DNA of 64,000 nt, taken from assembly GCF_003790525.1 (NCBI RefSeq), contig NZ_CP033635.1; one strand, given 5' to 3'. Position 1 is the stretch's first letter; each line of letters begins with the position of its first letter. Under the pieces are notes generated by a model. That model saw only the letters and a list, made by a program, of their open reading frames with translations, had not been told where the DNA came from and did no database searches. This stretch comes from Escherichia coli. GTDB lineage: Bacteria; Pseudomonadota; Gammaproteobacteria; Enterobacterales; Enterobacteriaceae. Made by a program: the position numbers and the translations under genes. Shown here piece after piece: positions 1-64,000 of the stretch.

Positions 1-1413
1 TTAATTGACGGCGTGCTGGGAATGAAAGCATACGGCAGCCTGGCAAAACGTGAAAAGGATGACCCGCAAAACTCAACGACCACCGATACCGGAGAAACGC
101 CGCGTATTGAAGGATTCTCCAGCCGCGACGGCAATGTCGAATTTGCCTGGACACCGAATCAAAATCACGATTTTACTGCCGGATACGGTTTCGACCGTCA
201 GGATCGTGATTCCGACTCGCTGGACAAAAACCGCCTGGAACGCCAGAACTACTCCGTCAGCCATAATGGGCGTTGGGATTACGGCACCAGCGAACTGAAA
301 TACTACGGTGAGAAAGTCGAGAACAAAAACCCTGGCTACAGCAGCCCGATAACTTCCGAAAGCAATACGGTCGACGGCAAATACACGTTGCCGCTGACGG
401 CGATTAATCAGTTTCTCACGGTTGGCGGTGAATGGCGTCACGACAAACTTAGCGATGCGGTGAACCTGACCGGGGGAACCAGCTCCAAAACGTCTGCCAG
501 CCAGTACGCGCTGTTTGTGGAAGATGAATGGCGGATCTTCGAGCCGCTGGCGCTGACGACCGGCGTACGTATGGACGATCATGAAACCTACGGTGAACAC
601 TGGAGTCCGCGTGCCTACCTGGTTTATAACGCCACCGACACCGTAACGGTGAAAGGGGGCTGGGCGACGGCATTTAAAGCGCCTTCTCTGTTGCAACTTA
701 GCCCTGACTGGACGAGCAATTCCTGCCGTGGCGCATGTAAGATTGTGGGTAGCCCGGATCTGAAACCAGAAACCAGCGAAAGTTGGGAACTGGGGCTTTA
801 CTACATGGGCGAAGAAGGCTGGCTGGAAGGGGTTGAATCCAGCGTTACCGTTTTCCGTAACGATGTGAAAGATCGTATCAGCATTAGCCGTACGTCTGAC
901 GTCAACGCTGCACCGGGCTACCAAAACTTTGTCGGTTTTGAGACGGGCGCTAACGGACGGCGCATACCGGTATTTAGCTACTACAACGTTAACAAAGCTC
1001 GTATTCAGGGCGTGGAAACCGAACTGAAAATTCCGTTCAACGATGAATGGAAACTGTCGATCAACTACACCTACAACGATGGTCGTGATGTCAGCAACGG
1101 CGAAAACAAACCGCTATCCGATCTGCCGTTCCATACTGCTAACGGTACGCTGGACTGGAAACCGCTGGCGCTGGAAGACTGGTCATTCTATGTTTCTGGT
1201 CACTATACCGGGCAGAAACGCGCCGACAGCGCGACGGCTAAAACACCGGGCGGTTATACCATCTGGAATACCGGTGCGGCCTGGCAGGTGACTAAAGACG
1301 TCAAACTGCGCGCAGGCGTGCTGAACCTTGGCGACAAGGATCTCAGTCGTGACGACTACAGCTATAACGAAGACGGACGTCGTTACTTTATGGCAGTGGA
1401 TTATCGCTTCTGA
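1..1413 (+). CDS. cirA: TonB-dependent outer-membrane receptor, C-terminal part (colicin I receptor-like); 5' end lies outside the window
   Basis: Frame open from position 1; beta-barrel C-terminus ending ...AVDYRF; sits next to yeiG/folE as in K-12 (from memory). Confidence 0.7.
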
Positions 1414-39399: not shown

Positions 39400-39487
39400 T
39401 GGCGGTGAGGGGGGGATTCGAACCCCCGATACGTTGCCGTATACACACTTTCCAGGCGTGCTCCTTCAGCCACTCGGACACCTCACC
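39400..39487 (-). tRNA. serW: tRNA-Ser (anticodon GGA)
   Basis: Reverse complement reads GGTGAGGTGTCCGAGTGG...CCTGGAAAGTG...GGTTCGAATCCCCCCCTCACCGCCA; long variable arm. Confidence 0.9.
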
Positions 39488-54782: not shown

Positions 54783-54932
54783 ATGATGATGCCCTCACTG
54801 GTGAGGGTGACAAAAAAGCCCTCTCAATGGCGGGCAAATCTGGTTTTTTGTTTTGTCTCTACAGGGAAAGGGCGCCATATCGGCCCACCCCAACAACCGG
54901 ATAGCGGGGAATTTCTCCCCCGCTGCGGTTTC

Positions 54933-55073
54933 TTACGGTTTACACTGCAAGAACGCCGCAAAACGCGCTCCCCAGATATCAAAGCTGAATTCACATAACG
55001 AATCGTGGACCATCCAGATGACCAGGGTTATTGTCAGGCATAAAATGCCAACAATAATCGTTTTTTGCGGTAT
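54933..55073 (-). pseudogene. Hok/Gef-family toxin homologue, copy 1, start codon ATG->ATA
   Basis: Hand-translated ...LCLTITLVIWMVHDSLCEFSFDIWGARFAAFLQCKP; the position aligned to the ATG of copy 2 is ATA (TAT at 55071-55073 on the + strand); overlapping mok-like frame 54991..55173. Confidence 0.45.
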
Positions 55074-55314
55074 AGCGCTTGCTCCTTTTACAAAGAGGCG
55101 CTAACCTTCCACTTGTCACGGTAGGAAGGGTCAGGCCTCGGTTAAACACAGATGTTTTCCGGGGCCTTTCCACATCCGGCCTTCAGGTTTTCCCTCCGGC
55201 CATCAGCCGAAAGGCACCCGTTTCTTTTTGTTGCGGCAATATTTCAGGTGTCAGTTGGGGTGGGCTGTATCTTGTCTGATGCATAAAAAAATGCCCGCGC
55301 TTTGGCGGGCAAAA

Positions 55315-55496
55315 GACAAGACTTTTCGTTTGTATATCATGGATAATGGACACCCCTTCCTGTTGTCAGGTGGCAGGCACCCGTGGTTAATCTACTGTTT
55401 TTGTGCTTTTGTCTCAACCCTGAAGTTTTCATGGAAAATCAGGGTTGCTTCATATGTGCCAGGAAGGTGCGGCTATGATAACTGCCAAAAAAAGCC
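55315..55496 (-). ncRNA. Structured repeat element X1 (candidate sRNA, subtype a)
   Basis: ~170 bp bounded by hairpins; internal perfect stems (CAACCCTGA...TCAGGGTTG, CCTTCC...GGAAGG); no SD-led ORF. Confidence 0.3.
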
Positions 55497-55525
55497 CGCT
55501 TTCCGGCGGGCAAAACAGCAATGTG

Positions 55526-55683
55526 AGTTGTCTGTCATTGATACTGGACAGCCTTCCTGTTGTCAGGTGGAAGGTACCCGTGGTTAATCTACTGTCTTTG
55601 TGCTTTTGTCTCAACCCTGAAGTTTTCATGGAAAATCAGGGTTGCTTCATGTGAACCAGGAAGGTGAGGCGATGGTAACCGCC
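55526..55683 (-). ncRNA. Structured repeat element X2 (candidate sRNA, subtype b)
   Basis: Near-identical core to X1 with a different distal end (CAGCAATGTGAGTTGTCTGTCATTGATACTGG). Confidence 0.3.
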
Positions 55684-55930
55684 AAAAAAATGCCCGCTTT
55701 CCGGCGGGCAAAACAAGGAAGTACGGATCATGTATTATTGATTACGAGGCATTCCACCATGCCCACGTTTAATTTAGCTAGTTTTCATTTTATTCACAAT
55801 ATAGTTACTTATCATATTTATGAACAAAACTGTAATTTCATCTATAGGTATAAGTGATTTGCATTAACATGTTTCTTCTGTATTGCTGTTGGTTTTCCGA
55901 TGCTGATATTTATGATACATTCAGGGGCAA

Positions 55931-56135
55931 ATGAGGTTGTTCCACAGAAACGATGTTGAGATATTTCTGCTCCAGAAAGGACAAGCTAAAAAAATAAAGT
56001 GAAATTATGATATGTCAGGGATGTTCAGGCATGTCAGTGTCTTATTAATAAACTCGTTGCTGCTGTAATAACACCAAAAAAATCAAAGCATAATCTGCAT
56101 GTTGTTCCTGATGACCCAATAACCACAAAAGAATA
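55931..56135 (+). pseudogene. Degenerate copy of the small array protein gene (frameshift/early stop)
   Basis: Begins MRLFHRNDVEI... then stops after 23 aa; the downstream DNA still aligns with the intact copy through ...CTGATGACCC(A/C)ATAACCACAAAAGAATAA. Confidence 0.4.
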
Positions 56136-56164
56136 AAAAAATGCCCGCTTTCCGGCGGGCAAAA

Positions 56165-56333
56165 CAGCAATGTGAGTTGTCTGTCATTGATACTGGACAC
56201 CCTTCCTGTTGTCAGGTGGAAGGCACCCGTGGTTAATCTACTGTCTTTGTGCTTTTGGCTCAACCCTGAAGTTTTCATGGAAAATCAGGGCTGCTTTGTG
56301 TGCGCCAGGGAAGGCGCCTCGATGGCAGGCGCA
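56165..56333 (-). ncRNA. Structured repeat element X3 (subtype b)
   Basis: Copy of X2 between hairpins at 56134 and 56333. Confidence 0.3.
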
Positions 56334-56586
56334 AAAAAAATGCCCGTGCTTCGGCGGGCAAAATAAGGAAGTACAGGTTACATGTTATTGATAAAGTAGC
56401 ATTGCTCTGTCCGTCTTTAATCTAACGAGTTTTGAGTTTTTTCACAATATTGTTACCTGTCATGTTATAGATGAAACTGCAATTTCATCTATAGGTATAA
56501 ATGATTTGTATTAATGTGTGTCCACTGTTTGTCTGCTTTCTGGTTTTCAGTTGACTGTGTTTCTGATGAATTCAGGAGGTTGTCTT

Positions 56587-56685
56587 ATGAGGCTGTTCCA
56601 CAGAAACGATATTGAGATTGAACTGCATTTCTCCTCCGGTGAGGATAAGGTTAAATCATTGTTGATGAAAAAAACAAAGATTTAA
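56587..56685 (+). pseudogene. 3'-truncated copy of the small array protein gene
   Basis: MRLFHRNDIEIELHFSSGEDKVKSLLMKKTKI*; AGGAGG SD; identical to the intact copy for 23 codons, then diverges. Confidence 0.35.
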
Positions 56686-56937
56686 TTTATTGATATAAAG
56701 GATTTGTATCAGCGTATGTCCACGCAGTGACCACATTTTCGAGAGGTAGAGTAAGCCCGCAACATTGCGGGCTTTGTCTTATAGTCTGATCACTGTTTCA
56801 AGTCGGTGAGGACACCAAAAAGAAAACCCGCAGTTTTTATGCTGCGGGTTTGTTGTTCATGTCTGTGAGATAGGGTGCCTTATCGACCTTACCCTGGCAA
56901 CCGATTGACGGGGGATTGCTCCCCCGTCGCGGTTTCC

Positions 56938-57078
56938 TTACTTCTTACATTGTAAGAACGCCGCAAACTCCGCTCCCCAGAAGCTCATCCGTATTTCGCA
57001 CAGCGAACCGTGCAATATCCAGATGATGAGGATTGCCGTCACGCAGAACGTGATGGCCGTAAGCGATTTTTGCGACAT
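56938..57078 (-). CDS. Hok/Gef-family type I toxin homologue (46 aa), copy 2, intact
   Basis: Hand-translated MSQKSLTAITFCVTAILIIWILHGSLCEIRMSFWGAEFAAFLQCKK: TM helix plus SLCE(I/L)R and AAFLxC signature of Hok proteins; fully overlapped by a mok-like frame (56945..57178). Confidence 0.65.
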   Translation of the reverse strand: MSQKSLTAITFCVTAILIIWILHGSLCEIRMSFWGAEFAAFLQCKK

Positions 57079-57335
57079 AGCACTTGCTCCTTTTCCGGAG
57101 AGGCGCTAACCTTTCACTTGTCAAGGTAATGCGGTTAGGGCCTCGGTTAAACAGAAATGTTTTCCGGGGCCTTTCCACATCCGGCCTTCAGGTTTTCCCT
57201 CCGGCCATCAGCCGAAAGGCACCCGCGCGTAATTTAACTGTTTCTTTTTGTTGCGGCAATATTTCAGGTGTCAGTTGGGGTGGGCTGTATCTTGTCTGAT
57301 GCATAAAAAAATGCCCGCGCTTCGGCGGGCAAAAA

Positions 57336-57504
57336 ACAAGACTTTTCGTTTGTATATCATGGATAATGGACACCCTTCCTGTTGTCAGGGGGAGGTACCC
57401 GTAGCTAATCTACTCACTTTGTGCCCGCAGCTCAACCCTGAAGTTTTCATGGAAAATCAGGGCTGCTTTGTGTGCGCCAGGGAAGGCGCCTCGATGGCAG
57501 GCGC
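57336..57504 (-). ncRNA. Structured repeat element X4 (subtype a)
   Basis: Copy of X1 between hairpins at 57305 and 57505. Confidence 0.3.
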
Positions 57505-57755
57505 AAAAAAAATGCCCGCTCTCCGGCGGGCAAAACAATGATCTACGTCACATTATATTGATAACCGGGCATTCCTCCATGCCCATTTTTAATTTAGCCA
57601 TTTTTCATTTTGTTCACAATATAGTTATCTATCATATTCATGAATGAAATTATAATTTCATCTATAGGTATAAATGATTTGTGTTAATATGTTTCTCCTG
57701 TCTAACTGTTTTCTCATTTTTCGATACTAGTATTTCTGATATATTCAGGGGGCGT

Positions 57756-57971
57756 ATGAGATTGTTCCGAAGAAACGATATTGAGATTGAACTGCATTTC
57801 TCCTCCGGTGAGGATAAGGTTAAATCAATAAAGGTGAAACTAAGACATGCCCGGGATGTTCAGGCGTGTCAGTGTCTTATTGATGAACTCGTTGCTGCCG
57901 GAGGAACGCCAAAAAAACAAAAATATAATCTGCACGTGGTTCCTGATGACCCCATAACCACAAAAGAATAA
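57756..57971 (+). CDS. Small basic protein (71 aa), intact copy of the array family
   Basis: MRLFRRNDIEIELHFSSGEDKVKSIKVKLRHARDVQACQCLIDELVAAGGTPKKQKYNLHVVPDDPITTKE; GGGGG SD; AT-rich promoter-like region upstream; two degenerate paralogues nearby. Confidence 0.5.
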   Translation: MRLFRRNDIEIELHFSSGEDKVKSIKVKLRHARDVQACQCLIDELVAAGGTPKKQKYNLHVVPDDPITTKE

Positions 57972-58113
57972 AAAAATGCCCGCTTTCCGGCGGGCAAAAA
58001 ACAATTTAGGTCATATTTCATCATGGATAATTAAATACTTGCCCGTGGTTGCGGGAAAGTATCTGCCGTTAATCTACTTGCCTTATGATGTCCTCTCAAC
58101 CTGATTATTGTTC

Positions 58114-58365
58114 TTAAATATCAAGATTAATCTGAGTATTCCCCCTGTGAGATCCCGGAAAATCTTCCCACGGTATCCGCTCTGTACCCTGCGGCGACGG
58201 GGCGCGTTTTGATGTGAATTTGTTAAAACCCTCCAGTGTGGTAAAGCCGATCCCGCATTCGAGGTTATTGCACTGGTAGTACTTCAGGCGAACTGTGCCT
58301 GAATCATTTTCATTGCGACTGGTGCGGATACGTGCGGATGCACCGCATAGGGGACAACGGAACAT
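58114..58365 (-). CDS. ogr: Ogr/Delta-family zinc-finger late transcription activator
   Basis: MFRCPLCG...YYQCNNLECG: CxxC...CxxxxC spacing as in P2 Ogr. Confidence 0.8.
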   Translation of the reverse strand: MFRCPLCGASARIRTSRNENDSGTVRLKYYQCNNLECGIGFTTLEGFNKFTSKRAPSPQGTERIPWEDFPGSHRGNTQINLDI

Positions 58366-58408
58366 GGCTTCTCCTTATCTGGCTGAGTGGAGATGGCTCA
58401 TTTTAATT

Positions 58409-59500
58409 TTATCCGCCTGAATCTGCTATCCATTCGGGGATTTTCGCTTCCAGCTCCAGTTGTGTGGTGAAGCCGCTTTCATCTATGATGTGCTCCACCC
58501 TGGCAATAATCCAGTCCTGATTGTCCACCTCGCTTTTAAAACCTGTTACCCTGCCGTGCATTTCGGGATACAGGTCGGCACGACCCCGTGCCAGAGTGAT
58601 GGAGAATGCCGCTGCTCCCCGCTGTAACTCCTGCCACTTTGCCGCAGCTGCACGTCGTGCGGTTTCTTCATTCTGGTAAGTCCTGCGCAGAACGTAGACG
58701 TTCCCTTCCGCGCCTTCCATGTAATCACCCTCCCGGCTGCTGCTCTTCTCCTGTTTCTGTTTCCCGGCTTCCCTGCGTCGCTTCACGTTCACTTTTTTCT
58801 TGTGCCCGAACTTCAGATCGAGCCAGTGCGCCCGGACCCCCGTATACGCATCACGGTCAGCAATGCGAAAGCGGTGACTGTCGCCGCTGCTGCGGGTAAT
58901 GGCGAACGAAGGCAGGGCTCTTCCGTCCGGCCCGGTTCCGCCACCCGGCAGAATGAATAACAGGCTGCCGTTTTTTACGGTGGCAATCGCACCCAGCATT
59001 TCAGCCATGCGGGTCAGGAAGGATATATCGCTCTCTTCGGTCTGGTCAGCGTGGTCAATTTCGATATCCATGAGGATTTCGCTTATCTGTGTCTTCAGGC
59101 CGTAGCGGTGAGCGATGGCTGACACAACCTGTTTTACGGTCACGTCGTGCCAGGATACCTCCCGCCTCACGTTGAACTCTTCCCGAAAATCTGCGCTGCT
59201 GGCGGTGATGATCAGTTTATCTGGAGGTCCTTCCCACGCAACCTCATCAACGACGTAGGTGCCCTTGTTAACCAGTGATTCTCCTCGCCAGCCAATCATC
59301 ACTCTCAGGCGTGCGCCACGTGGTGGCAACTGTAACTGCCCGTCCGTATCGTCAAGGGTGAGGGTGACGCGGTCTGCCTCAAAGGCCCGGTTATCCGTCA
59401 GGGTCAGCGTCATGAGTCGCTCTGTGAGGTTTGCCAGTGTGTTGTTGTTGATGGTGATGTCGATATCCGGTGACGGAACGGTAACTGACAGCTCTTTCAT
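58409..59500 (-). CDS. P2 gpD-like tail protein (late control D)
   Basis: ...LTLTDNRAFEADRVTLTLDD...DISFLTRMAE...SGDSHRFRIADRDAYTGVRAHW... parallels P2 D; start at MKELSV with AGGAGAG SD. Confidence 0.8.
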   Translation of the reverse strand: MKELSVTVPSPDIDITINNNTLANLTERLMTLTLTDNRAFEADRVTLTLDDTDGQLQLPPRGARLRVMIGWRGESLVNKGTYVVDEVAWEGPPDKLIITASSADFREEFNVRREVSWHDVTVKQVVSAIAHRYGLKTQISEILMDIEIDHADQTEESDISFLTRMAEMLGAIATVKNGSLLFILPGGGTGPDGRALPSFAITRSSGDSHRFRIADRDAYTGVRAHWLDLKFGHKKKVNVKRRREAGKQKQEKSSSREGDYMEGAEGNVYVLRRTYQNEETARRAAAAKWQELQRGAAAFSITLARGRADLYPEMHGRVTGFKSEVDNQDWIIARVEHIIDESGFTTQLELEAKIPEWIADSGG

Positions 59501-59661
59501 GGTGTTCTCTCCTGGTGCGTTCTGTAATGGTTTCATGCACCGCAGCGGCGTTGAATGGCTGTTTTGTTGTCGCTGTCAGGAGACAACATCAAAGGGGTGA
59601 GATTACCGCGTGTGTGGGTAATGATTACGCAAAATCAACCAGCCAGACAAGGGTGAAACAT

Positions 59662-60945
59662 ATGAGTGAAACACGCTTTCATGGTGCGCGCGTAAGGGAA
59701 AGTACCGGCCTTGCCACCGCCATTAATGATGTGGATTCCAGTGTTATTGGTATTGTGGCTACGGCAGATGACGCGGATGAAACTCTGTTCCCGCTGAACA
59801 AACCCACACTGCTGACCCGCGTCAGTGATGTGCTGGGTAAGGCCGGCACAAAGGGGACGCTTTACAAATCGCTTAAGGCTGTCGCCGACCAGGTGAGCAC
59901 GAAGGTGATTGTGGTGCGCGTTCCTGATGCCAGTTCTCAGGGCGCCCCGGATACAGGAGTTACATCATTCGGTCATCTGGATCCTGAAGACAGGGCATTT
60001 TTTGGTATTGATGAGTCTGAAGATGCACATCCTGTATACCCACACAAAACGCAGGACCAGTATGTCATTGGTGGCACGGATGGCGACGGTAATTATACCG
60101 GTATGTATGCACTTCTGATAGCTGAACAGGATGATGCCATCGGTTACCGTCCGCGCATCATCGCAGCTCCCGGACTGGATACTGAAGCTGTCACAAAATC
60201 CCTGTGTGTAATTGCAGAAAAACTTCGCGCATTTGTCTACGCGGGCTGTCACAACTGCAAGAAGCCCGCCGATGCAATCAGCTACCGCGCCAGATTTAAC
60301 GAGCGCGAACTTATGCTGGTCTGGCCGGACTTCATCGCCCATAACCCGAAATCCGGCGCTAATGAGGTCTTCCCGGCTGTGGCGTACGCCTGCGGTTTAC
60401 GTGCACGTATTGACCACGAACAGGGCTGGCATAAATCGCTGTCCAACGTGCCGGTAAGAAATGTGCTGGGTATTTCCAGCCCGGTGTTCTGGTCCCTTCA
60501 GTCCGAAGACAGCGATGCCAACAATCTCAACAACAAGGAAATCACTACCATCATTTGCCGTAACGGTTTCCGCTTCTGGGGCAACCGTACGCCGGAAACG
60601 AAGGCGTATATCTTTGAGGTGTACACGCGAACCGCTCAGGTGCTGGCTGATTCCATTGCGGAAGCGCAGTTTGAAACGATTGATGCCCCGCTGACCCCTG
60701 CTAATGTGAAAGACGTGTTAAGCGCAATTCGCGCAAAACTGGATGCGCTGGTTACGTCAGGACGTCTCATTGGTGCGGAGTGCTGGTATGACGTGGTGGA
60801 TAACAGCACCACGGAACTTCGTCAGGGACGCGTGCGTATCCGCTACAAGTACACGCCCGTTCCGCCGCTTGAGGATATGGAACTTTACCAGGCGTTTACT
60901 GATGAATTCTTTGGTCCTGCATTTGCGACGCTTGGAGGTGCTTAA
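59662..60945 (+). CDS. Contractile tail sheath protein (P2 FI-like)
   Basis: ...ETLFPLNKP...KLRAF...RELMLVWPDF...RIDHEQGWHKSLSNV...GFRFWGNRT...YTRTAQVLAD...YTPVPPLE collinear with P2 FI. Confidence 0.85.
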   Translation: MSETRFHGARVRESTGLATAINDVDSSVIGIVATADDADETLFPLNKPTLLTRVSDVLGKAGTKGTLYKSLKAVADQVSTKVIVVRVPDASSQGAPDTGVTSFGHLDPEDRAFFGIDESEDAHPVYPHKTQDQYVIGGTDGDGNYTGMYALLIAEQDDAIGYRPRIIAAPGLDTEAVTKSLCVIAEKLRAFVYAGCHNCKKPADAISYRARFNERELMLVWPDFIAHNPKSGANEVFPAVAYACGLRARIDHEQGWHKSLSNVPVRNVLGISSPVFWSLQSEDSDANNLNNKEITTIICRNGFRFWGNRTPETKAYIFEVYTRTAQVLADSIAEAQFETIDAPLTPANVKDVLSAIRAKLDALVTSGRLIGAECWYDVVDNSTTELRQGRVRIRYKYTPVPPLEDMELYQAFTDEFFGPAFATLGGA

Positions 60946-61463
60946 TGGCCGTACCAAAAAATCTCAGGGTGTTCACGCTGTTTACTGACGGGGTGAACCA
61001 GATTGGCAGGGTGACCGGCTTCACGCCCCCCAAACTGACCCGTAAAACGGAAGCCTATCGCGGTGGTGGTATGGCCGGCGCGGTGAATATCGACCTTGGT
61101 CTGGATGACGGCGCGCTGGATGCGAGTTTCACCATGGGCGGGCCGACCCGCGAACTGTTCCTTAAGTACGGCGGCACGATCGACGGTACGCTGCTGCGCT
61201 TTGTCGGTGAGTACTACAACGATGAAGAGCAGAGCGACCTGTATGAAATTGAGCTTCGCGGCCGCGTGACGGAAATTGATACGGGGGAGGCAAAACAGGG
61301 TGAGGTCACGTCTCACACCTATGCGGTCAGGAGTACCTACTACAAACTCAGCATTAACGACCGTCCGGTGCTGGAGATTGATTTACTGAACCACATCGAA
61401 CGCAAGGACGGCAAAAACGTCTTCCCGGACCGCGTGCGCTCGGCGATTGGTCTTGGTGGTTAA
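60945..61463 (+). CDS. Tail tube protein (P2 FII-like)
   Basis: ...PPKLTRKTEAYRGGGMAGAVNIDLGLDDGALD...EIDTGEAKQGE...; ATG overlaps the FI stop (TAATG). Confidence 0.85.
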   Translation: MAVPKNLRVFTLFTDGVNQIGRVTGFTPPKLTRKTEAYRGGGMAGAVNIDLGLDDGALDASFTMGGPTRELFLKYGGTIDGTLLRFVGEYYNDEEQSDLYEIELRGRVTEIDTGEAKQGEVTSHTYAVRSTYYKLSINDRPVLEIDLLNHIERKDGKNVFPDRVRSAIGLGG

Positions 61464-61513
61464 TGTTTCCCACGGCGGCGCGCGGCGTCGCCCCCTGATT
61501 TGAGGTTTTATGC

Positions 61514-61876
61514 ATGAAAGAAAATCCGGTTGTTGCCCCTGTTACTGACGGTGCTGATGCGGCGGACGTGACCAGTGAGCGCGGCGTGACGCTGAAAACG
61601 CCCCTTGTGCTCGGTAACAAAAAAATCACGTATGTGGAAATCACGCCTGCTGTACAGCAGGCCGGTTCACTGCGCGGGCTGTCACTGCTTGACGTGCTGA
61701 ACATGAAAACGGACGCGATGTTTGAGTTACTCCCGCGCGTCACTTCGCCGCGACTGGACGAGGTTCTGCTTAAGCGCATGGGGTCCGCTGATTTTATTCA
61801 GCTGTGCGGGGTGGCGGTTAATTTTTTGGCCGGTCAGGACTCTGGCGGGAAGAGCGGGGCGGCGACGGCAGGCTGA
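61514..61876 (+). CDS. Tail assembly chaperone (P2 E-like); a -1 frameshift at TTTTTTG would give an E'-like product ending at 62040
   Basis: Position between tube and tape-measure genes; slippery TTTTTTG at 61823-61829; -1 frame open to 62040 (...ITVVPFEHIEDFVADIAVIFNWSPAEIF...). Confidence 0.65.
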   Translation: MKENPVVAPVTDGADAADVTSERGVTLKTPLVLGNKKITYVEITPAVQQAGSLRGLSLLDVLNMKTDAMFELLPRVTSPRLDEVLLKRMGSADFIQLCGVAVNFLAGQDSGGKSGAATAG

Positions 61877-62026
61877 TAACCGTCGTGCCCTTTGAGCACA
61901 TTGAAGACTTTGTGGCGGATATCGCCGTTATTTTCAACTGGTCTCCCGCTGAAATCTTCCTGATGGATCCCGGCGAGGTGGTCGCCTGGCGTGAGCGGGC
62001 GGCCCTTCGCAGCGGGAACGCAGAGC

Positions 62027-64000
62027 ATGAAAACGCTTGATATACGGGTCGCCTTCAGCGCTGTTGACAGGCTGACCCGTCCCACCGAAAACGCCCGTCG
62101 CATGATGGGCCAGCTTGGCGACTCCATACAGAGAACGCAGGGTGCGATCAAAAACCTGGAACGCTACGCCCGTTCATTTGATCGCGCCCGCGAGGCTGCA
62201 AACAAGGCCGGAAACGGCATTGTCAGGGCGCAACGCCAGTTAAGCGCACTTCAGCAAATTCAGCGCGCCGGAACCGTGCTGTCTGACAAACAGAAAAAGC
62301 TGATGAACGATTTGAGCCTCAAACTTGAGCGTCTCAATGAGGTCCGTGCGCGTGAAGTTCAGCGAATGCGCGAACTGGGTGGTGAGCTGCGGCGCCACGG
62401 TATTGCGCTTTCCGGCAGTGACAACACCATTCAACAGGCCATACGGCGAACACAGCAATACAACGACCAGCTGGAACGCGAACGGCAGGCGCTGGCACGT
62501 GTCACGCAGGCACGCCAGCAATATTCCCGTGCTCAGGAGACGGCGGGAAAACTTAAAACGGTCGGACTTACGGCGGTTGGTACGGCGGCGGCAGGCGGCT
62601 ATGCGGCCGGACGTTTCCTGCAACCGGCGGTCAGTTTTGGTAAGGAGATGTCACGCGTCCAGGCGCTGACCCGTATTGACAAAAACAGTCCGCAGTTTAA
62701 GGCGCTGCGCGAACAGGCCATTAAGCTGGGCTCTGAAACGCAGTTTACCGCCGGTGATGCTGCCAGCGGTCAGGCGTTCCTTGCCATGGCCGGCTTCACA
62801 CCACAGGCCATACAGGCGGCGCTACCCGGCGTGCTTGATCTGGCAATGGCTGCAGGGATGGACCTGGGACAGACTGCCGATATCAGTTCGAATATCCTCA
62901 CACAGTTTGGTCTGTCCGCTGACCAGATGGATCGCGTGGGTGACACGCTGGCCGCCACCTTCACACGAACCAATACGGATCTCCGTTCACTGGGTGAAAC
63001 CATGAAGTACACGGGTCCGGTTGCAGCTTCACTTGGCCTGTCCCTTGAACAGGCGGCAGCCATGACGGGTGTCCTTGGCAGTGTGGGGATCCGTGGAAGT
63101 GATGCAGGTACGGCGCTGCGTGCCAGTCTGTCACGTCTGGTTGATCCGCCGAAGGCCGCTGCAATGGCACTGAAAGAGCTTGGCGTGGAGACGCAGAATG
63201 CTTACGGGAACATGCGCCGGATGGAAAATATCCTGAATGAGCTGTACCAGGCCACCCGAAAATACGGTAATGCCGCGCAGGTCTCCTTTTTCAGGGCTAT
63301 TGCCGGGCAGGAGTCCTATGTTTCCCTGATGAATCTTGTCACTGCGGCGGGGGAAAATAATCTTCCCCGTCTTACGCAGGAGATTGAACTGGCCACCGGG
63401 GAACTTAATCACACTGCCCGTGTTATGGCTGATAACCTGGACGGTGACCTGAAATCACTGAACAGCGCATGGGAAGGACTGCGTATCCGTGTCGCTGACC
63501 TCGTTGACGGGCCGCTGCGTTCTGTCACGCAGTCGTTCACCCGGGTTATTGCGAAAGTCACCGCGCTGGCTCAGGCGCACCCTGAACTGACAAAACAACT
63601 GCTGATTGCCGGTGGTGTACTGCTGGCTGCGGTTGCGGCCATGGGGGCGCTGTCACTTGCCACTGGTGTGTTGATGGGGCCGCTGGCAAAACTGCGTCTT
63701 GGGTTTGCCCTGCTGACCGGCACATCCGGCCTCGGTCGTGCGCTGCCGTTACTGACGCAGCTGCGCGGCGTACTCGGTGGTCCGCTGGGCGGTATCGGTG
63801 GCTGGCGCGTGCTGTTTGTCGGTATCACCTCCGGTGCCGGACGGTTTGCTGCACTGCTGGGCGTAGTTGCGGGGCGGCTTCGTGGTGTGCAGGCGGGACT
63901 TGGCGCGCTGCGTGGTGGTCTGCTGGCTGCGTTCACTTCACCTGGCGGCGCACTGATTTCACTGGGGCGCGGTATCGGAATACTGGCGCTCAGACTGTCA
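62027..64000 (+). CDS. Tail tape-measure protein (P2 T-like); 3' end lies outside the window
   Basis: Hand-translated frame open from ATG 62027 to the window end (MKTLDIRVAFSAVDRL...); coiled-coil N-terminus and Gly/Ala-rich hydrophobic segments; absent from the ORF track because no stop lies in the window. Confidence 0.7.
   Translation, partial: MKTLDIRVAFSAVDRLTRPTENARRMMGQLGDSIQRTQGAIKNLERYARSFDRAREAANKAGNGIVRAQRQLSALQQIQRAGTVLSDKQKKLMNDLSLKLERLNEVRAREVQRMRELGGELRRHGIALSGSDNTIQQAIRRTQQYNDQLERERQALARVTQARQQYSRAQETAGKLKTVGLTAVGTAAAGGYAAGRFLQPAVSFGKEMSRVQALTRIDKNSPQFKALREQAIKLGSETQFTAGDAASGQAFLAMAGFTPQAIQAALPGVLDLAMAAGMDLGQTADISSNILTQFGLSADQMDRVGDTLAATFTRTNTDLRSLGETMKYTGPVAASLGLSLEQAAAMTGVLGSVGIRGSDAGTALRASLSRLVDPPKAAAMALKELGVETQNAYGNMRRMENILNELYQATRKYGNAAQVSFFRAIAGQESYVSLMNLVTAAGENNLPRLTQEIELATGELNHTARVMADNLDGDLKSLNSAWEGLRIRVADLVDGPLRSVTQSFTRVIAKVTALAQAHPELTKQLLIAGGVLLAAVAAMGALSLATGVLMGPLAKLRLGFALLTGTSGLGRALPLLTQLRGVLGGPLGGIGGWRVLFVGITSGAGRFAALLGVVAGRLRGVQAGLGALRGGLLAAFTSPGGALISLGRGIGILALRLS

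What the first reader, a model, noticed from the sequence alone, without database searches (positions are those of the whole stretch)
56938..57178. Intact Hok/Gef-family toxin gene with an overlapping mok-like frame, missed by the 60-aa ORF cutoff
The minus strand encodes a 46-aa protein with a single TM helix and the SLCEIR...AAFLxC signature of Hok toxins (compare HokA ...DSLCELHIK...AAFLACK). A 77-aa frame (56945..57178) overlaps it as mok does in hok/sok loci. Downstream lie stem-loops that could act as fold-back or terminator structures.
Basis: partly seen in the sequence, partly recalled or inferred. Interest (0 to 1): 0.6.

Follow-up and report, generated by a model that had tools for sequence, protein, structure and literature searches.

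The report
Prophage-borne Hok toxin gene, already known
The small gene is a real, intact Hok-type membrane toxin with its antisense-RNA control region. It sits at the end of a defective P2-like prophage in E. coli and is already annotated and catalogued.

Summary
The 46-aa ORF at 56938..57078 (-) exists and belongs to the Hok/Gef family (Pfam PF01848, E 9.8e-7; PHROG 251, E 8.5e-22). The window is E. coli chromosome. RefSeq already annotates this ORF as WP_000078913.1, "Hok/Gef family protein". The ~450-nt cassette occurs in about a third of complete E. coli genomes. It lies just after ogr in P2-like prophages, after lom in Stx phages, and on a few plasmids. A peptide 44/46 identical was tested as a cluster representative in a 2026 preprint and is not among the three sequences it names as non-toxic.

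The hok mRNA architecture is complete:
- promoter
- 5' element that can pair either with the 3' end or within the leader
- antisense-target hairpin
- Shine-Dalgarno sequence and anti-Shine-Dalgarno element
- terminator
- a Sok promoter at the position homologous to R1's

The 77-aa overlapping frame is not a conserved mok. Only 27 of 61 unique cassettes have any upstream ORF reading through the hok start, and no ORF class exceeds 11 of 61. R1, hokB and hokC all have an ATG with an SD-like motif at -57/-58.

A second, decayed copy lies at 54842-55219. Unusual hok-leader-like repeats fill the interval between serS and ogr.

Verdict: correct identification of a known element. The mok claim is unsupported. 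Interest is low.

The parts
57254..57259 (-). hok promoter -35 (TTGCCG)
   Evidence: Read from the sequence. It lies 17 nt upstream of TAAATT. The T/G core is conserved in the 62-sequence alignment. The regex TTGNNN-N17-TANNNT-N6-GGGTGCCT matches at 57259->57217. Inferred, not tested.
57231..57236 (-). hok promoter -10 (TAAATT), 6 nt before the predicted +1 at 57224
   Evidence: Conserved as TAnATT across homologues. This 15-nt stretch is deleted in the decayed copy A.
56824..57224 (-). Predicted full-length hok mRNA, from +1 (GGGUGCC...) to the intrinsic terminator
   Evidence: The Rfam RF01794 match starts at 57224. The MFE fold has z = -7.75 and pairs the 5' end with the 3' end. The BLAST-conserved cassette spans roughly 56806-57260.
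57210..57224 (-). 5' tac-like element (GGGUGCCUUUCGGCU)
   Evidence: It pairs with 56873-56888 in the full-length fold. After 3' truncation it pairs with 57166-57176. It is identical in the six BLAST-retrieved homologues L005-L010 and in copy A.
57166..57176 (-). Internal partner of the 5' element (GGAAAGGCCCC), forming the 5' 'tac stem' of the processed mRNA
   Evidence: Seen in the truncated-mRNA folds, in the RNAalifold consensus of 58-61 sequences, and in the Rfam consensus structure.
57100..57144 (-). Antisense-target (SokT-like) hairpin, GAGGC.CUAACC...GGUUAG.GCCUC. Its loop is hypervariable and carries a UUNR motif.
   Evidence: for the structure. One search shows invariant stems and a hypervariable +92..+104.
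57087..57092 (-). hok Shine-Dalgarno (AAGGAG), 8 nt before the ATG
   Evidence: Read from the sequence and conserved. In the full-length fold it pairs with the upstream CCUCUCC, which acts as an anti-SD.
56938..57078 (-). hok CDS, 46 aa, single hydrophobic helix
   Evidence: RefSeq WP_000078913.1. The ORF is 46 aa in 57 of 61 unique cassettes. pN/pS is 0.37.
56945..57178 (-). 77-aa overlapping frame: a lineage-specific open frame, not a conserved mok
   Evidence: No family match.
56906..56929 (.). GC-rich hairpin just after the hok stop (GACGGGGGAGCAAUCCCCCGUC)
   Evidence: It is retained in the consensus fold.
56873..56888 (-). fbi-like 3' fold-back element (GGUCGAUAAGGCACCC), complementary to the mRNA 5' end
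   Evidence: 5'/3' pairing appears in the MFE of 59 of 61 homologues. Mean duplex energy is -25.6 kcal/mol against -14.4 for shuffled controls.
56824..56851 (-). Intrinsic terminator of the hok mRNA
   Evidence: 10-bp stem followed by UUUUCUUUUU.
57084..57112 (+). Predicted Sok promoter: -35 TTGCTC (57084-57089), 17-nt spacer, -10 TAACCT (57107-57112)
   Evidence: Its position is homologous to the R1-type TTGCGC-N17-TATCCT, read from L004. The mRNA-sense complement AGGTTAGCGCCTCT is 100% conserved in 62 sequences. It is too weak for the generic scan, matching 6 of 12 consensus positions. Inferred.
57119..57176 (+). Predicted Sok-like antisense RNA, about 57 nt: a single-stranded 5' tail, then hairpin 57138-57171 followed by UUUCC
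   Evidence: Fold. The length matches the annotated sokC (59 nt) and sokB (57 nt). No transcript data are available.
54842..55219 (-). Second, decayed hok/sok copy (copy A)
   Evidence: Rfam RF01794 scores 48.1 bits at 55062-55219. The start codon is ATA (55071-55073). A 15-nt deletion removes the -10 box. The mok-like frame is closed early. The Sok promoter and hairpin are retained.

Best explanation
The locus is an intact hok/sok-type type I toxin-antitoxin cassette of about 440 nt (56824-57259). It is carried as a moron at the ogr-proximal end of a defective P2-like (P88/Xuanwuvirus-type) prophage inserted next to serS in E. coli.

Proposed mechanism, by analogy with R1 hok/sok:
1. A stable mRNA is transcribed from 57224 on the minus strand.
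2. In its full-length form the 5' end (GGGUGCCUUUCGG) pairs with the 3' fbi-like element (AAGGCACCC). An upstream CCUCUCC masks the hok Shine-Dalgarno, so the mRNA is inert.
3. After 3' trimming the 5' end instead forms a local stem. An antisense-target hairpin then forms.
4. A short, unstable Sok-like RNA of about 57 nt, made from the + strand (57119-57176), pairs with that hairpin and triggers decay.
5. If Sok is lost, the 46-aa Hok peptide is made. It inserts into the inner membrane and depolarises the cell.

Unlike R1 hok, hokB and hokC, this Hok cluster has no conserved mok leader ORF. Hok is therefore probably translated directly from its own strong SD (AAGGAG, 8-nt spacing).

Shown here: the ORF, family membership, the alternative RNA pairings (predicted), conservation, and genomic context.
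Inferred: transcription start sites, the existence of Sok, 3' processing, mok-independent translation, and the biological role (prophage stabilisation, phage exclusion or lysis assistance).
For: Family membership and prior knowledge:
- Pfam HOK_GEF E 9.8e-7 and phrog_251 E 8.5e-22.
- RefSeq annotates it as a Hok/Gef family protein.
- The Rfam hok-leader model RF01794 matches 57065-57224 with E 3.4e-8.
- A peptide 44/46 identical (72_1621) appears in Table S2 of bioRxiv 10.1101/2025.08.07.668861. It is not among the three sequences named as non-toxic out of 45 tested.

RNA architecture:
- The full-length fold pairs the 5' and 3' ends, z = -7.75.
- Truncation switches the fold to a 5' stem plus a target hairpin. 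The consensus fold of 58-61 homologues shows the same two hairpins.
- 5'/3' pairing is predicted in 59 of 61 homologues.
- The stretch holding the complement of the Sok -10 box and the anti-SD (AGGTTAGCGCCTCT) is invariant. The region opposite the Sok 5' tail is hypervariable.

Selection and distribution:
- The hok ORF is 46 aa in 57 of 61 cassettes, and pN/pS is 0.37.
- The cassette is present in 1755 of 5426 complete E. coli genomes.
- It lies directly after ogr in P2-like prophages at three different att sites.
- It is present in isolated Peduoviridae phages and in Stx phages.

Absence of mok: with positive controls.
Against: - No transcript data exist for either RNA.
- The Sok promoter matches only 6 of 12 consensus positions. 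The generic scan did not detect it.
- The Rfam and NCBIfam scores are below the curated thresholds.
- Predicted unpaired probabilities for the SD and AUG barely change between the full-length and truncated forms: 0.43 to 0.33-0.37 for the SD and 0.19 to 0.24-0.25 for the AUG. Refolding alone therefore does not obviously open the hok start, so some other activating step may exist.
- The homologue set was retrieved partly with an exact 17-nt 5' pattern. This fixes the 5' element and precludes a covariation test on it.
- The host prophage is defective, so the cassette's present-day role is unknown.
Confidence: 0.75

Rival explanations
1. Canonical three-gene hok/mok/sok locus. The 77-aa frame (or a shorter version starting at UUG +101 or AUU +95) is a functional mok, its translation is required to open the hok start, and it is what Sok blocks.
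For: - The frame is open from +38 to +280 and ends 7 nt before the hok stop, much as I recall for R1 mok.
- GUG at +47 has an AAGG motif 6 nt upstream.
- UUG at +101 lies inside the Sok target, where R1 and K-12 mok start codons lie.
- Thermodynamic folding does not show the hok SD opening on its own.
Against: - The frame is not conserved. A canonical start upstream is present in 20 of 61 cassettes, and one at a mok-like position (+80 or beyond) in 10 of 61.
- The frame end differs in 46 of 61.
- No reading-through ORF class exceeds 11 of 61 in any frame.
- Frame 0 is blocked by an invariant TAG.
- GUG +47 lies beside the tac stem and outside the Sok target.
- Alleles with near-identical Hok, such as L005, have no upstream start at all.
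- There are no family matches.
Confidence: 0.1
2. Inactive relic. Like K-12 hokA, hokC and hokE, the cassette is a non-functional remnant carried along with a decaying prophage. Its mRNA is not made or not activatable.
For: - The prophage is defective. The tape-measure gene is annotated as partial.
- The neighbouring copy A is clearly decayed.
- The region is riddled with repeats and rearrangements.
- Chromosomal hok loci in K-12 are interrupted or flanked by IS elements.
Against: - Every recognisable element of copy B is intact, in contrast to copy A: promoter boxes, 5' element, fbi, SD, ATG, Sok promoter and terminator.
- The ORF is under purifying selection across the family.
- A 44/46-identical peptide is reported as toxic.
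- The same 501 bases are 100% identical in at least 15 other genomes.
Confidence: 0.14
3. Chance small ORF with a hydrophobic stretch, not a Hok gene.
For: The protein is short. The NCBIfam scores (30.7 and 21.3 bits) are far below the curated cut-offs of 89 and 73.
Against: - Pfam, PHROG and BLASTP significance.
- An independent RNA-level match to the hok leader.
- Conservation of the ORF in hundreds of phage and bacterial records.
Confidence: 0.01

Closest known systems
RefSeq WP_000078913.1 'Hok/Gef family protein'; PHROG phrog_251 'MokW-like host killing'; 'cluster 72' of Escalera-Maurer et al. (bioRxiv 10.1101/2025.08.07.668861)
   Same: This is the same gene. RefSeq annotates exactly this ORF. 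Phage records (P88, Chuche, Xuanwuvirus P884B11, Stx phages) annotate the homologous 141-nt ORF. The preprint's tested representative 72_1621 is 44/46 identical, and 72_1589 is another allele seen here in L010.
   Different: The window allele has I21 and K46 instead of M and Q. None of these sources analyses mok, Sok or the mRNA elements for this cluster. The preprint states that Mok was not analysed. The PHROG name 'MokW-like' is a misnomer, because the ORF is the hok frame.
hok/mok/sok (parB) of plasmid R1
   Same: - A small hydrophobic toxin with the C..T....LCE..AAF signature.
- An mRNA whose 5' end can pair either with a 3' fbi element or locally.
- A GAGGC/GCCUC target hairpin and an anti-SD element.
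- A Sok -10 at the homologous AGG(A/T)TAGC position, with a 17-nt spacer to a TTGC.. -35 box.
   Different: - Only 30% peptide identity, and 46 aa instead of 52 aa.
- tblastn with this peptide does not reach the more than 5000 plasmid records that carry R1-type Hok.
- There is no ATG with an SD at -57 and no conserved mok.
- The Sok -35 box overlaps the hok SD.
- The locus is prophage-borne rather than plasmid-borne.
E. coli K-12 hokA (with mokA/sokA)
   Same: It is the closest K-12 paralogue, at 40% identity and E 2e-10. It shares M.QK, W, SLCE and AAFL.CK. It is also the best NCBIfam hit.
   Different: - HokA is 50 aa.
- The NCBIfam HokA equivalog score of 30.7 is far below the cut-off of 89, so the window gene is not a HokA orthologue.
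- K-12 mokA shares hokA's stop coordinate and frame. In this family that frame carries an invariant TAG 10 codons upstream.
- In K-12 an IS150 element begins immediately upstream of hokA and truncates mokA.
hokW-sokW of Stx2 prophage Sp5 (PMC8621323)
   Same: A prophage-borne hok/sok type I TA system. It offers a tested precedent for function: sokW antitoxin activity partly needs RNase III and Hfq, and the locus assists phage-induced lysis and phage release.
   Different: HokW is 51 aa and was described as 44% identical to R1 Hok, so it is a different Hok cluster. No experiment addresses the P2-type cassette.

Membership tests
Hok/Gef protein family (Pfam PF01848) | Significant match to the HOK_GEF profile over most of its length | tested here: met
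   E 9.8e-7, 28.7 bits, model positions 5-42 of 42.
Hok/Gef protein family (Pfam PF01848) | About 50-aa peptide with one N-terminal hydrophobic helix and the conserved Cys, Thr, Leu-Cys-Glu and Glu residues | tested here: met
   C12, T14, E28 and A39 are invariant in the alignment with HokA, HokB, HokC and R1 Hok. L26-C27-E28 and E37 are read from the sequence. These correspond to the residues reported as more than 80% conserved (C16, T18, L30, C31, E32, E41). The peptide is 46 aa, at the short end of the range.
Hok/Gef protein family (Pfam PF01848) | Toxicity on expression (membrane depolarisation) | not testable with these tools
   There is only indirect evidence. The 44/46-identical 72_1621 was among 45 homologues tested and is not one of the three listed as non-toxic.
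NCBIfam NF007290 HokA equivalog / NF007279 Hok subfamily | Score at or above the curated cut-off | tested here: not met
   30.7 bits against a cut-off of 89, and 21.3 bits against 73. The protein is a divergent cluster, not a HokA orthologue.
[quoted passage not shown] | hok mRNA leader matching the Rfam RF01794 covariance model | tested here: inconclusive
   46.2 bits, E 3.4e-8, full model length 1-157, but below the gathering score of 59. Several inner-stem pairs are flagged as non-canonical.
[quoted passage not shown] | 5' tac element able to pair alternatively with a 3' fbi element (inactive form) or locally (active form) | tested here: met
   Predicted. The pairing is present in 59 of 61 homologues, at -25.6 kcal/mol against -14.4 for shuffled controls. 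This is prediction only. No covariation test was possible because the 5' element is invariant.
[quoted passage not shown] | Antisense Sok RNA gene with its own promoter, overlapping the leader | tested here: inconclusive
   A TTGCTC-N17-TAACCT promoter lies at the R1-homologous position. The mRNA-sense complement of its -10 box and the adjacent anti-SD stretch (AGGTTAGCGCCTCT) are invariant, and the -35 region is highly conserved. A terminator-like hairpin follows. The generic scan did not call the promoter, and there are no expression data.
[quoted passage not shown] | Overlapping mok ORF with its own SD and start inside the Sok target, translationally coupled to hok | tested here: not met
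   No conserved upstream ORF exists in any frame: 27 of 61 have any, and no class exceeds 11 of 61. The controls hokB, hokC and R1-type all have an ATG with an SD at -57/-58.
[quoted passage not shown] | 3' exonucleolytic processing of the mRNA and RNase III cleavage of the Sok duplex | not testable with these tools
   Requires RNA mapping in wild-type and rnc or pnp/rnb mutant backgrounds.
PHROG phrog_251 (phage moron 'MokW-like host killing') | Profile match and location in a phage or prophage accessory region | tested here: met
   E 8.5e-22, residues 1-46. The cassette lies just after ogr in P2-like prophages and phages and after lom in Stx phages.

The most novel reading that the evidence does not exclude
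This widespread phage-borne Hok cluster (46 aa; carried by P2-like and Stx phages) may be a natural mok-less hok/sok variant. Hok would be translated directly from its own SD, and Sok would act only through mRNA decay or refolding rather than by blocking a leader ORF. In addition, the rare hok-leader-like 'R' units next to it have the same promoter architecture and the same GGGUGCCUU 5' end. They may encode ~95-nt RNAs that compete with the hok mRNA 5' end for the fbi element and so modulate hok mRNA activation in trans.
Probability: 0.3. Interest if true: 0.4.

Novelty: already known. Interest (0 to 1): 0.15.

Why it matters
The identification itself adds nothing new. The gene is annotated in RefSeq and in phage records, belongs to a PHROG, and its cluster has been catalogued and tested for toxicity.

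The modest added value is regulatory. The textbook hok/sok model makes mok translation the step that Sok controls. This abundant phage-associated cluster keeps every RNA element of the R1 system but has no conserved mok. That makes it a convenient natural test of whether mok coupling is dispensable.

The cassette's fixed position after ogr in P2-like prophages at several integration sites also marks it as a phage moron. Its benefit to the phage is untested; candidates are prophage retention, exclusion of other phages, or help with lysis.

Tried and rejected
- The generic sigma-70 scan of 56700-57450 found no promoter at its 9-of-12 threshold. The hok and Sok promoters therefore rest on positional homology and conservation only.
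- The PDB sequence search found no solved relative.
- tblastn of the 46-aa peptide against plasmids did not reach R1-type Hok, finding only 34 records. This shows that the cluster is divergent.
- RNAalifold on the full-length alignment did not return the 5'/3' pairing, probably because the 3' ends align poorly. I replaced it with per-sequence folding and duplex energies.
- Unpaired probabilities did not show the SD opening after truncation. I therefore do not claim that refolding alone activates translation.
- I considered an in-frame, mokC-type N-terminal extension. It is rejected because an invariant TAG lies 10 codons upstream.
- I considered the tiny uORF GUG-AAA-GGU-UAG. It is rejected because the GUG is replaced by GUA in some alleles, such as L007 and L010.
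- The S segment (57225-58113) had no match in the phage collection. There was no Rfam family for the R units at either threshold.
- Local alignment of the R units to the hok promoter and leader is only marginally above shuffled controls: score 23-28 against a maximum of 22.
- I did not use the large protein searches or structure prediction. They could not change the verdict.

Full report
**Observation.** The minus strand of 56938..57078 encodes the 46-aa peptide MSQKSLTAITFCVTAILIIWILHGSLCEIRMSFWGAEFAAFLQCKK. A GTG-started 77-aa frame at 56945..57178 overlaps it in another frame. The peptide matches Pfam HOK_GEF (PF01848) with E 9.8e-7 over model positions 5-42 of 42. It matches PHROG phrog_251 with E 8.5e-22. 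Its best NCBIfam hits are HokA and the Hok subfamily, both far below the curated cut-offs: 30.7 against 89 bits and 21.3 against 73 bits. In an alignment with K-12 HokA, HokB and HokC and with R1 Hok, it keeps the invariant Cys, Thr and Glu and the LCE/AAF motifs. K-12 HokA is the closest named paralogue at 40% identity.

**Where the window comes from and whether the gene is known.** The region is E. coli chromosome, in the order ftsK-lolA-rarA-serS, then about 3.7 kb of repeats, then ogr, gpD, tail sheath and tail tube of a P2-like prophage. It is 99.7% identical to strain NRZ14408. There RefSeq annotates exactly this ORF as WP_000078913.1, "Hok/Gef family protein", and annotates the tape-measure gene as partial, so the prophage is defective. 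The 501 bases around the gene are 100% identical in at least 15 other complete genomes. Homologues at 74-100% identity occur in 1755 of 5426 complete E. coli genomes and are consistently annotated Hok/Gef.

**Distribution of the cassette.** The conserved unit is a cassette of about 450 nt. It lies directly downstream of ogr at the end of P2-like prophages integrated at three different sites: serS, flk/yfcJ and tRNA-Leu/pgsA. It also lies after lom in a lambdoid prophage and in the O157 urease island. It is found in 198 phage records, including isolated Peduoviridae (P88, Chuche, Xuanwuvirus P884B11) and many Stx phages. In those records the same 141-nt ORF is labelled "MokW-like host killing". 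It occurs on only about 35 plasmids, whereas R1-type Hok is found on more than 5000.

**Prior experimental evidence.** A 2026 preprint cataloguing Hok diversity lists 72_1621 (MSQKSLTAITFCVTAILIIWMLHGSLCEIRMSFWGAEFAAFLQCKQ, 44/46 identical) and 72_1589 as tested representatives of a high-abundance cluster. It names only three other sequences as non-toxic among the 45 tested (bioRxiv 10.1101/2025.08.07.668861). The gene is therefore already known.

**RNA architecture.** The Rfam model RF01794 is named "sok" but covers the hok mRNA leader in the sense orientation. It matches 57065-57224 (-) over its full length with E 3.4e-8 and 46.2 bits, below its gathering score of 59. Taking 57224 (GGGUGCC...) as +1, the following elements can be placed:
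- A promoter-like TTGCCG-N17-TAAATT lies at 57259-57231. It is conserved as TTG...-N17-TAnATT in homologues.
- Folding of +1..+413 gives z = -7.75. The first 15 nt pair with GGUCGAUAAGGCACCC at 56873-56888, an fbi-like element. CCUCUCC pairs with the hok SD.
- Removing the 3' end (+1..+322 or +335) switches the prediction. The 5' end now pairs with GGAAAGGCCCC at +49..59, and a GAGGC.CUAACC...GGUUAG.GCCUC hairpin forms at +81..125. RNAalifold on 58-61 unique homologues returns the same two hairpins.
- Full-length 5'/3' pairing is predicted in 59 of 61 homologues. Mean duplex energy is -25.6 kcal/mol against -14.4 for shuffled controls.
- A GC hairpin (56906-56929) follows the stop codon, and an intrinsic terminator (56851-56824) ends the unit.

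**Sok.** On the + strand, TTGCTC (57084-57089), a 17-nt spacer and TAACCT (57107-57112) occupy the position homologous to the R1-type TTGCGC-N17-TATCCT, read from a plasmid carrying a 100%-identical R1 Hok. Transcription from about 57119 would give an RNA of about 57 nt, with a single-stranded 5' tail and a GC hairpin (57138-57171) followed by UUUCC. That length is comparable with the annotated sokC (59 nt) and sokB (57 nt). In 62 aligned sequences the stretch AGGTTAGCGCCTCT, which holds the complement of the Sok -10 box and the anti-SD, is 100% conserved. The segment opposite the Sok 5' tail (+92..+104) and the Sok hairpin loop (+61..+75) are the most variable parts of the cassette. This fits diversification of Sok/target specificity among paralogous loci, which is my inference. 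The target loop keeps a UUNR motif in the alleles I inspected by eye. The promoter is weak by consensus, matching 6 of 12 positions, and the generic scan did not call it. Sok therefore remains a prediction.

**The "mok-like" frame.** I retrieved homologous cassettes from IMG/VR with the invariant 5' 17-mer and added the BLAST-retrieved E. coli loci, giving 61 unique intact-leader sequences.
- The hok ORF is exactly 46 aa in 57 of the 61. Its pN/pS is 0.37.
- The frame of the 77-aa ORF has an ATG/GTG/TTG upstream of the hok ATG in only 20 of 61, and one at a mok-like position (+80 or beyond) in 10 of 61.
- It terminates 58 nt before the hok stop in 46 of 61, and 7 nt before (as in this window) in only 12.
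- Across all frames, only 27 of 61 have any canonical-start ORF that begins upstream and reads through the hok start. The figure is 34 of 61 when near-cognate starts are allowed. No class exceeds 11 of 61.
- The hok frame itself carries an invariant TAG 10 codons upstream, which excludes a mokC-type in-frame extension.
- The same script recovers the annotated mokC (69 aa) and mokB (55 aa) and the R1-type mok (71 aa). Each is an ATG at -57/-58 preceded by an SD-like motif.
- The 77-aa product has no Pfam, NCBIfam or PHROG match.

I conclude that the 77-aa frame is a lineage-specific open frame and that this Hok cluster lacks a conserved mok. The preprint explicitly left Mok unanalysed.

**How hok translation is activated without mok is not settled.** In the MFE structures the anti-SD pairing is replaced by the target hairpin after truncation. 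However, ensemble unpaired probabilities for the SD and AUG barely change. A conserved long-range pairing of the start region (GUCGCAAAA) with UUUGCGGCG inside the CDS persists in both forms. Direct translation from the strong SD, with Sok acting through duplex-triggered decay, is my best inference. The hokW-sokW work, in which antitoxin activity partly requires RNase III and Hfq, provides a precedent (PMC8621323).

**Surroundings.** A second cassette, copy A (54842-55219, -), scores 48.1 bits with RF01794 but is decayed:
- the start codon is ATA;
- a 15-nt deletion removes the -10 box;
- the hok terminator is replaced.

Its Sok promoter and hairpin are intact.

Between serS and ogr the DNA is built from repeats. 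There are four ~195-nt "R" units and three ~520-700-nt "S" segments interleaved with the two hok cassettes. S occurs in only 30 of 5426 genomes, at 1-8 places each, and in no phage record. Each R unit has TTGAGN-N17-TAGATT-N6-GGGTRCCT, the same layout as the hok promoter and 5' end. Each runs about 95 nt to an intrinsic terminator. Two of the R-unit 5' ends are predicted to pair with the hok fbi element at about -22 kcal/mol, against -25.7 for the cognate 5' end. They look like collapsed hok leaders. Whether they are decay products or trans-acting RNAs is unknown.

**Verdict.** The mok interpretation does not survive comparison with homologues. The element is already annotated, catalogued and, as a cluster, tested for toxicity, so novelty is nil and interest is low. 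The residual points of interest are the apparent absence of mok in an abundant phage-borne Hok cluster and the rare hok-leader-like repeat array beside it.

Noticed in passing
window 54842-55219 (-): A second hok/sok cassette next to serS is decayed. Its hok start codon is ATA (55071-55073), a 15-nt deletion removes the hok -10 box, and its 3' end is different. Its Sok promoter (TTGCTC-N17-TAACCT) and Sok hairpin are intact, so it may be an orphan antitoxin gene. By eye, its predicted Sok 5' tail differs from that of copy B at about 8 of 20 positions.
   Followed up: partly
window 55290-55520, 55487-55720, 56136-56370, 57306-57545 (-): Four ~195-nt 'R' repeat units have no Rfam match. Each has a conserved hairpin (CCCUGAUUUUCCAUGAAAACUUCAGGG), a promoter-like TTGAGN-N17-TAGATT-N6 followed by GGGTRCCT (the hok mRNA 5' motif), a CCUUCC/GGAAGG hairpin and an intrinsic terminator. 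The predicted ~95-nt RNAs start at 57400, 56228, 55579 and 55382. Two of them are predicted to pair with the hok fbi element at about -22 kcal/mol. They may be collapsed hok leaders or tac-mimic RNAs.
   Followed up: partly
window 55487-56164, 56136-56655, 57306-57999: Three copies, about 80% identical, of a 520-700-nt 'S' segment separate ogr from hok and the two hok cassettes from each other. In typical P2-like prophages hok starts about 44 nt after ogr. S is found in only 30 of 5426 complete E. coli genomes, at 1-8 places each, and in no phage record.
   Followed up: partly
window 57756-57971 (+); related fragment 56586-56685 (+): A small ORF inside S3 (MRLFRRNDIEIELHFSSGEDKVKS...) is annotated in RefSeq as hypothetical protein WP_001236182.1. 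An 89%-identical 85-nt stretch covering its start recurs in S2 as a truncated frame. Its function is unknown and I did not search for it.
   Followed up: no
window 57121-57133 (hok mRNA +92..+104) and 57150-57164 (+61..+75): These are the two hypervariable patches in an otherwise highly conserved cassette. They coincide with the target of the predicted Sok 5' tail and with the Sok hairpin loop. This suggests diversifying selection on antisense specificity among the up to 9 paralogous copies per genome.
   Followed up: partly
window 57070-57078 with 56958-56966 (hok mRNA about +147..155 with +259..267): A long-range pairing is predicted between the hok start region (GUCGCAAAA) and UUUGCGGCG, which lies inside the codons for the conserved FAAF motif. 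It appears in the consensus fold and in both the full-length and truncated folds. It may be an additional translational lock.
   Followed up: no
window 58114-64000: A defective P88/Xuanwuvirus-type P2-like prophage. ogr and gpD are on the - strand. Tail sheath, tail tube and gpE are on the + strand. The tape-measure gene is broken into short ORFs and annotated as partial in the RefSeq twin.
   Followed up: no
phage records NC_026014.1, PP925824.1, NC_029120.1 (L132-L134): The PHROG-derived product name 'MokW-like host killing' is attached to the 141-nt hok frame, not to any mok frame. This annotation misnomer is propagating through phage records.
   Followed up: yes
window 39403-39487 (-): A tRNA gene is the only Rfam match at gathering threshold in the whole window. 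I did not examine it further.
   Followed up: no
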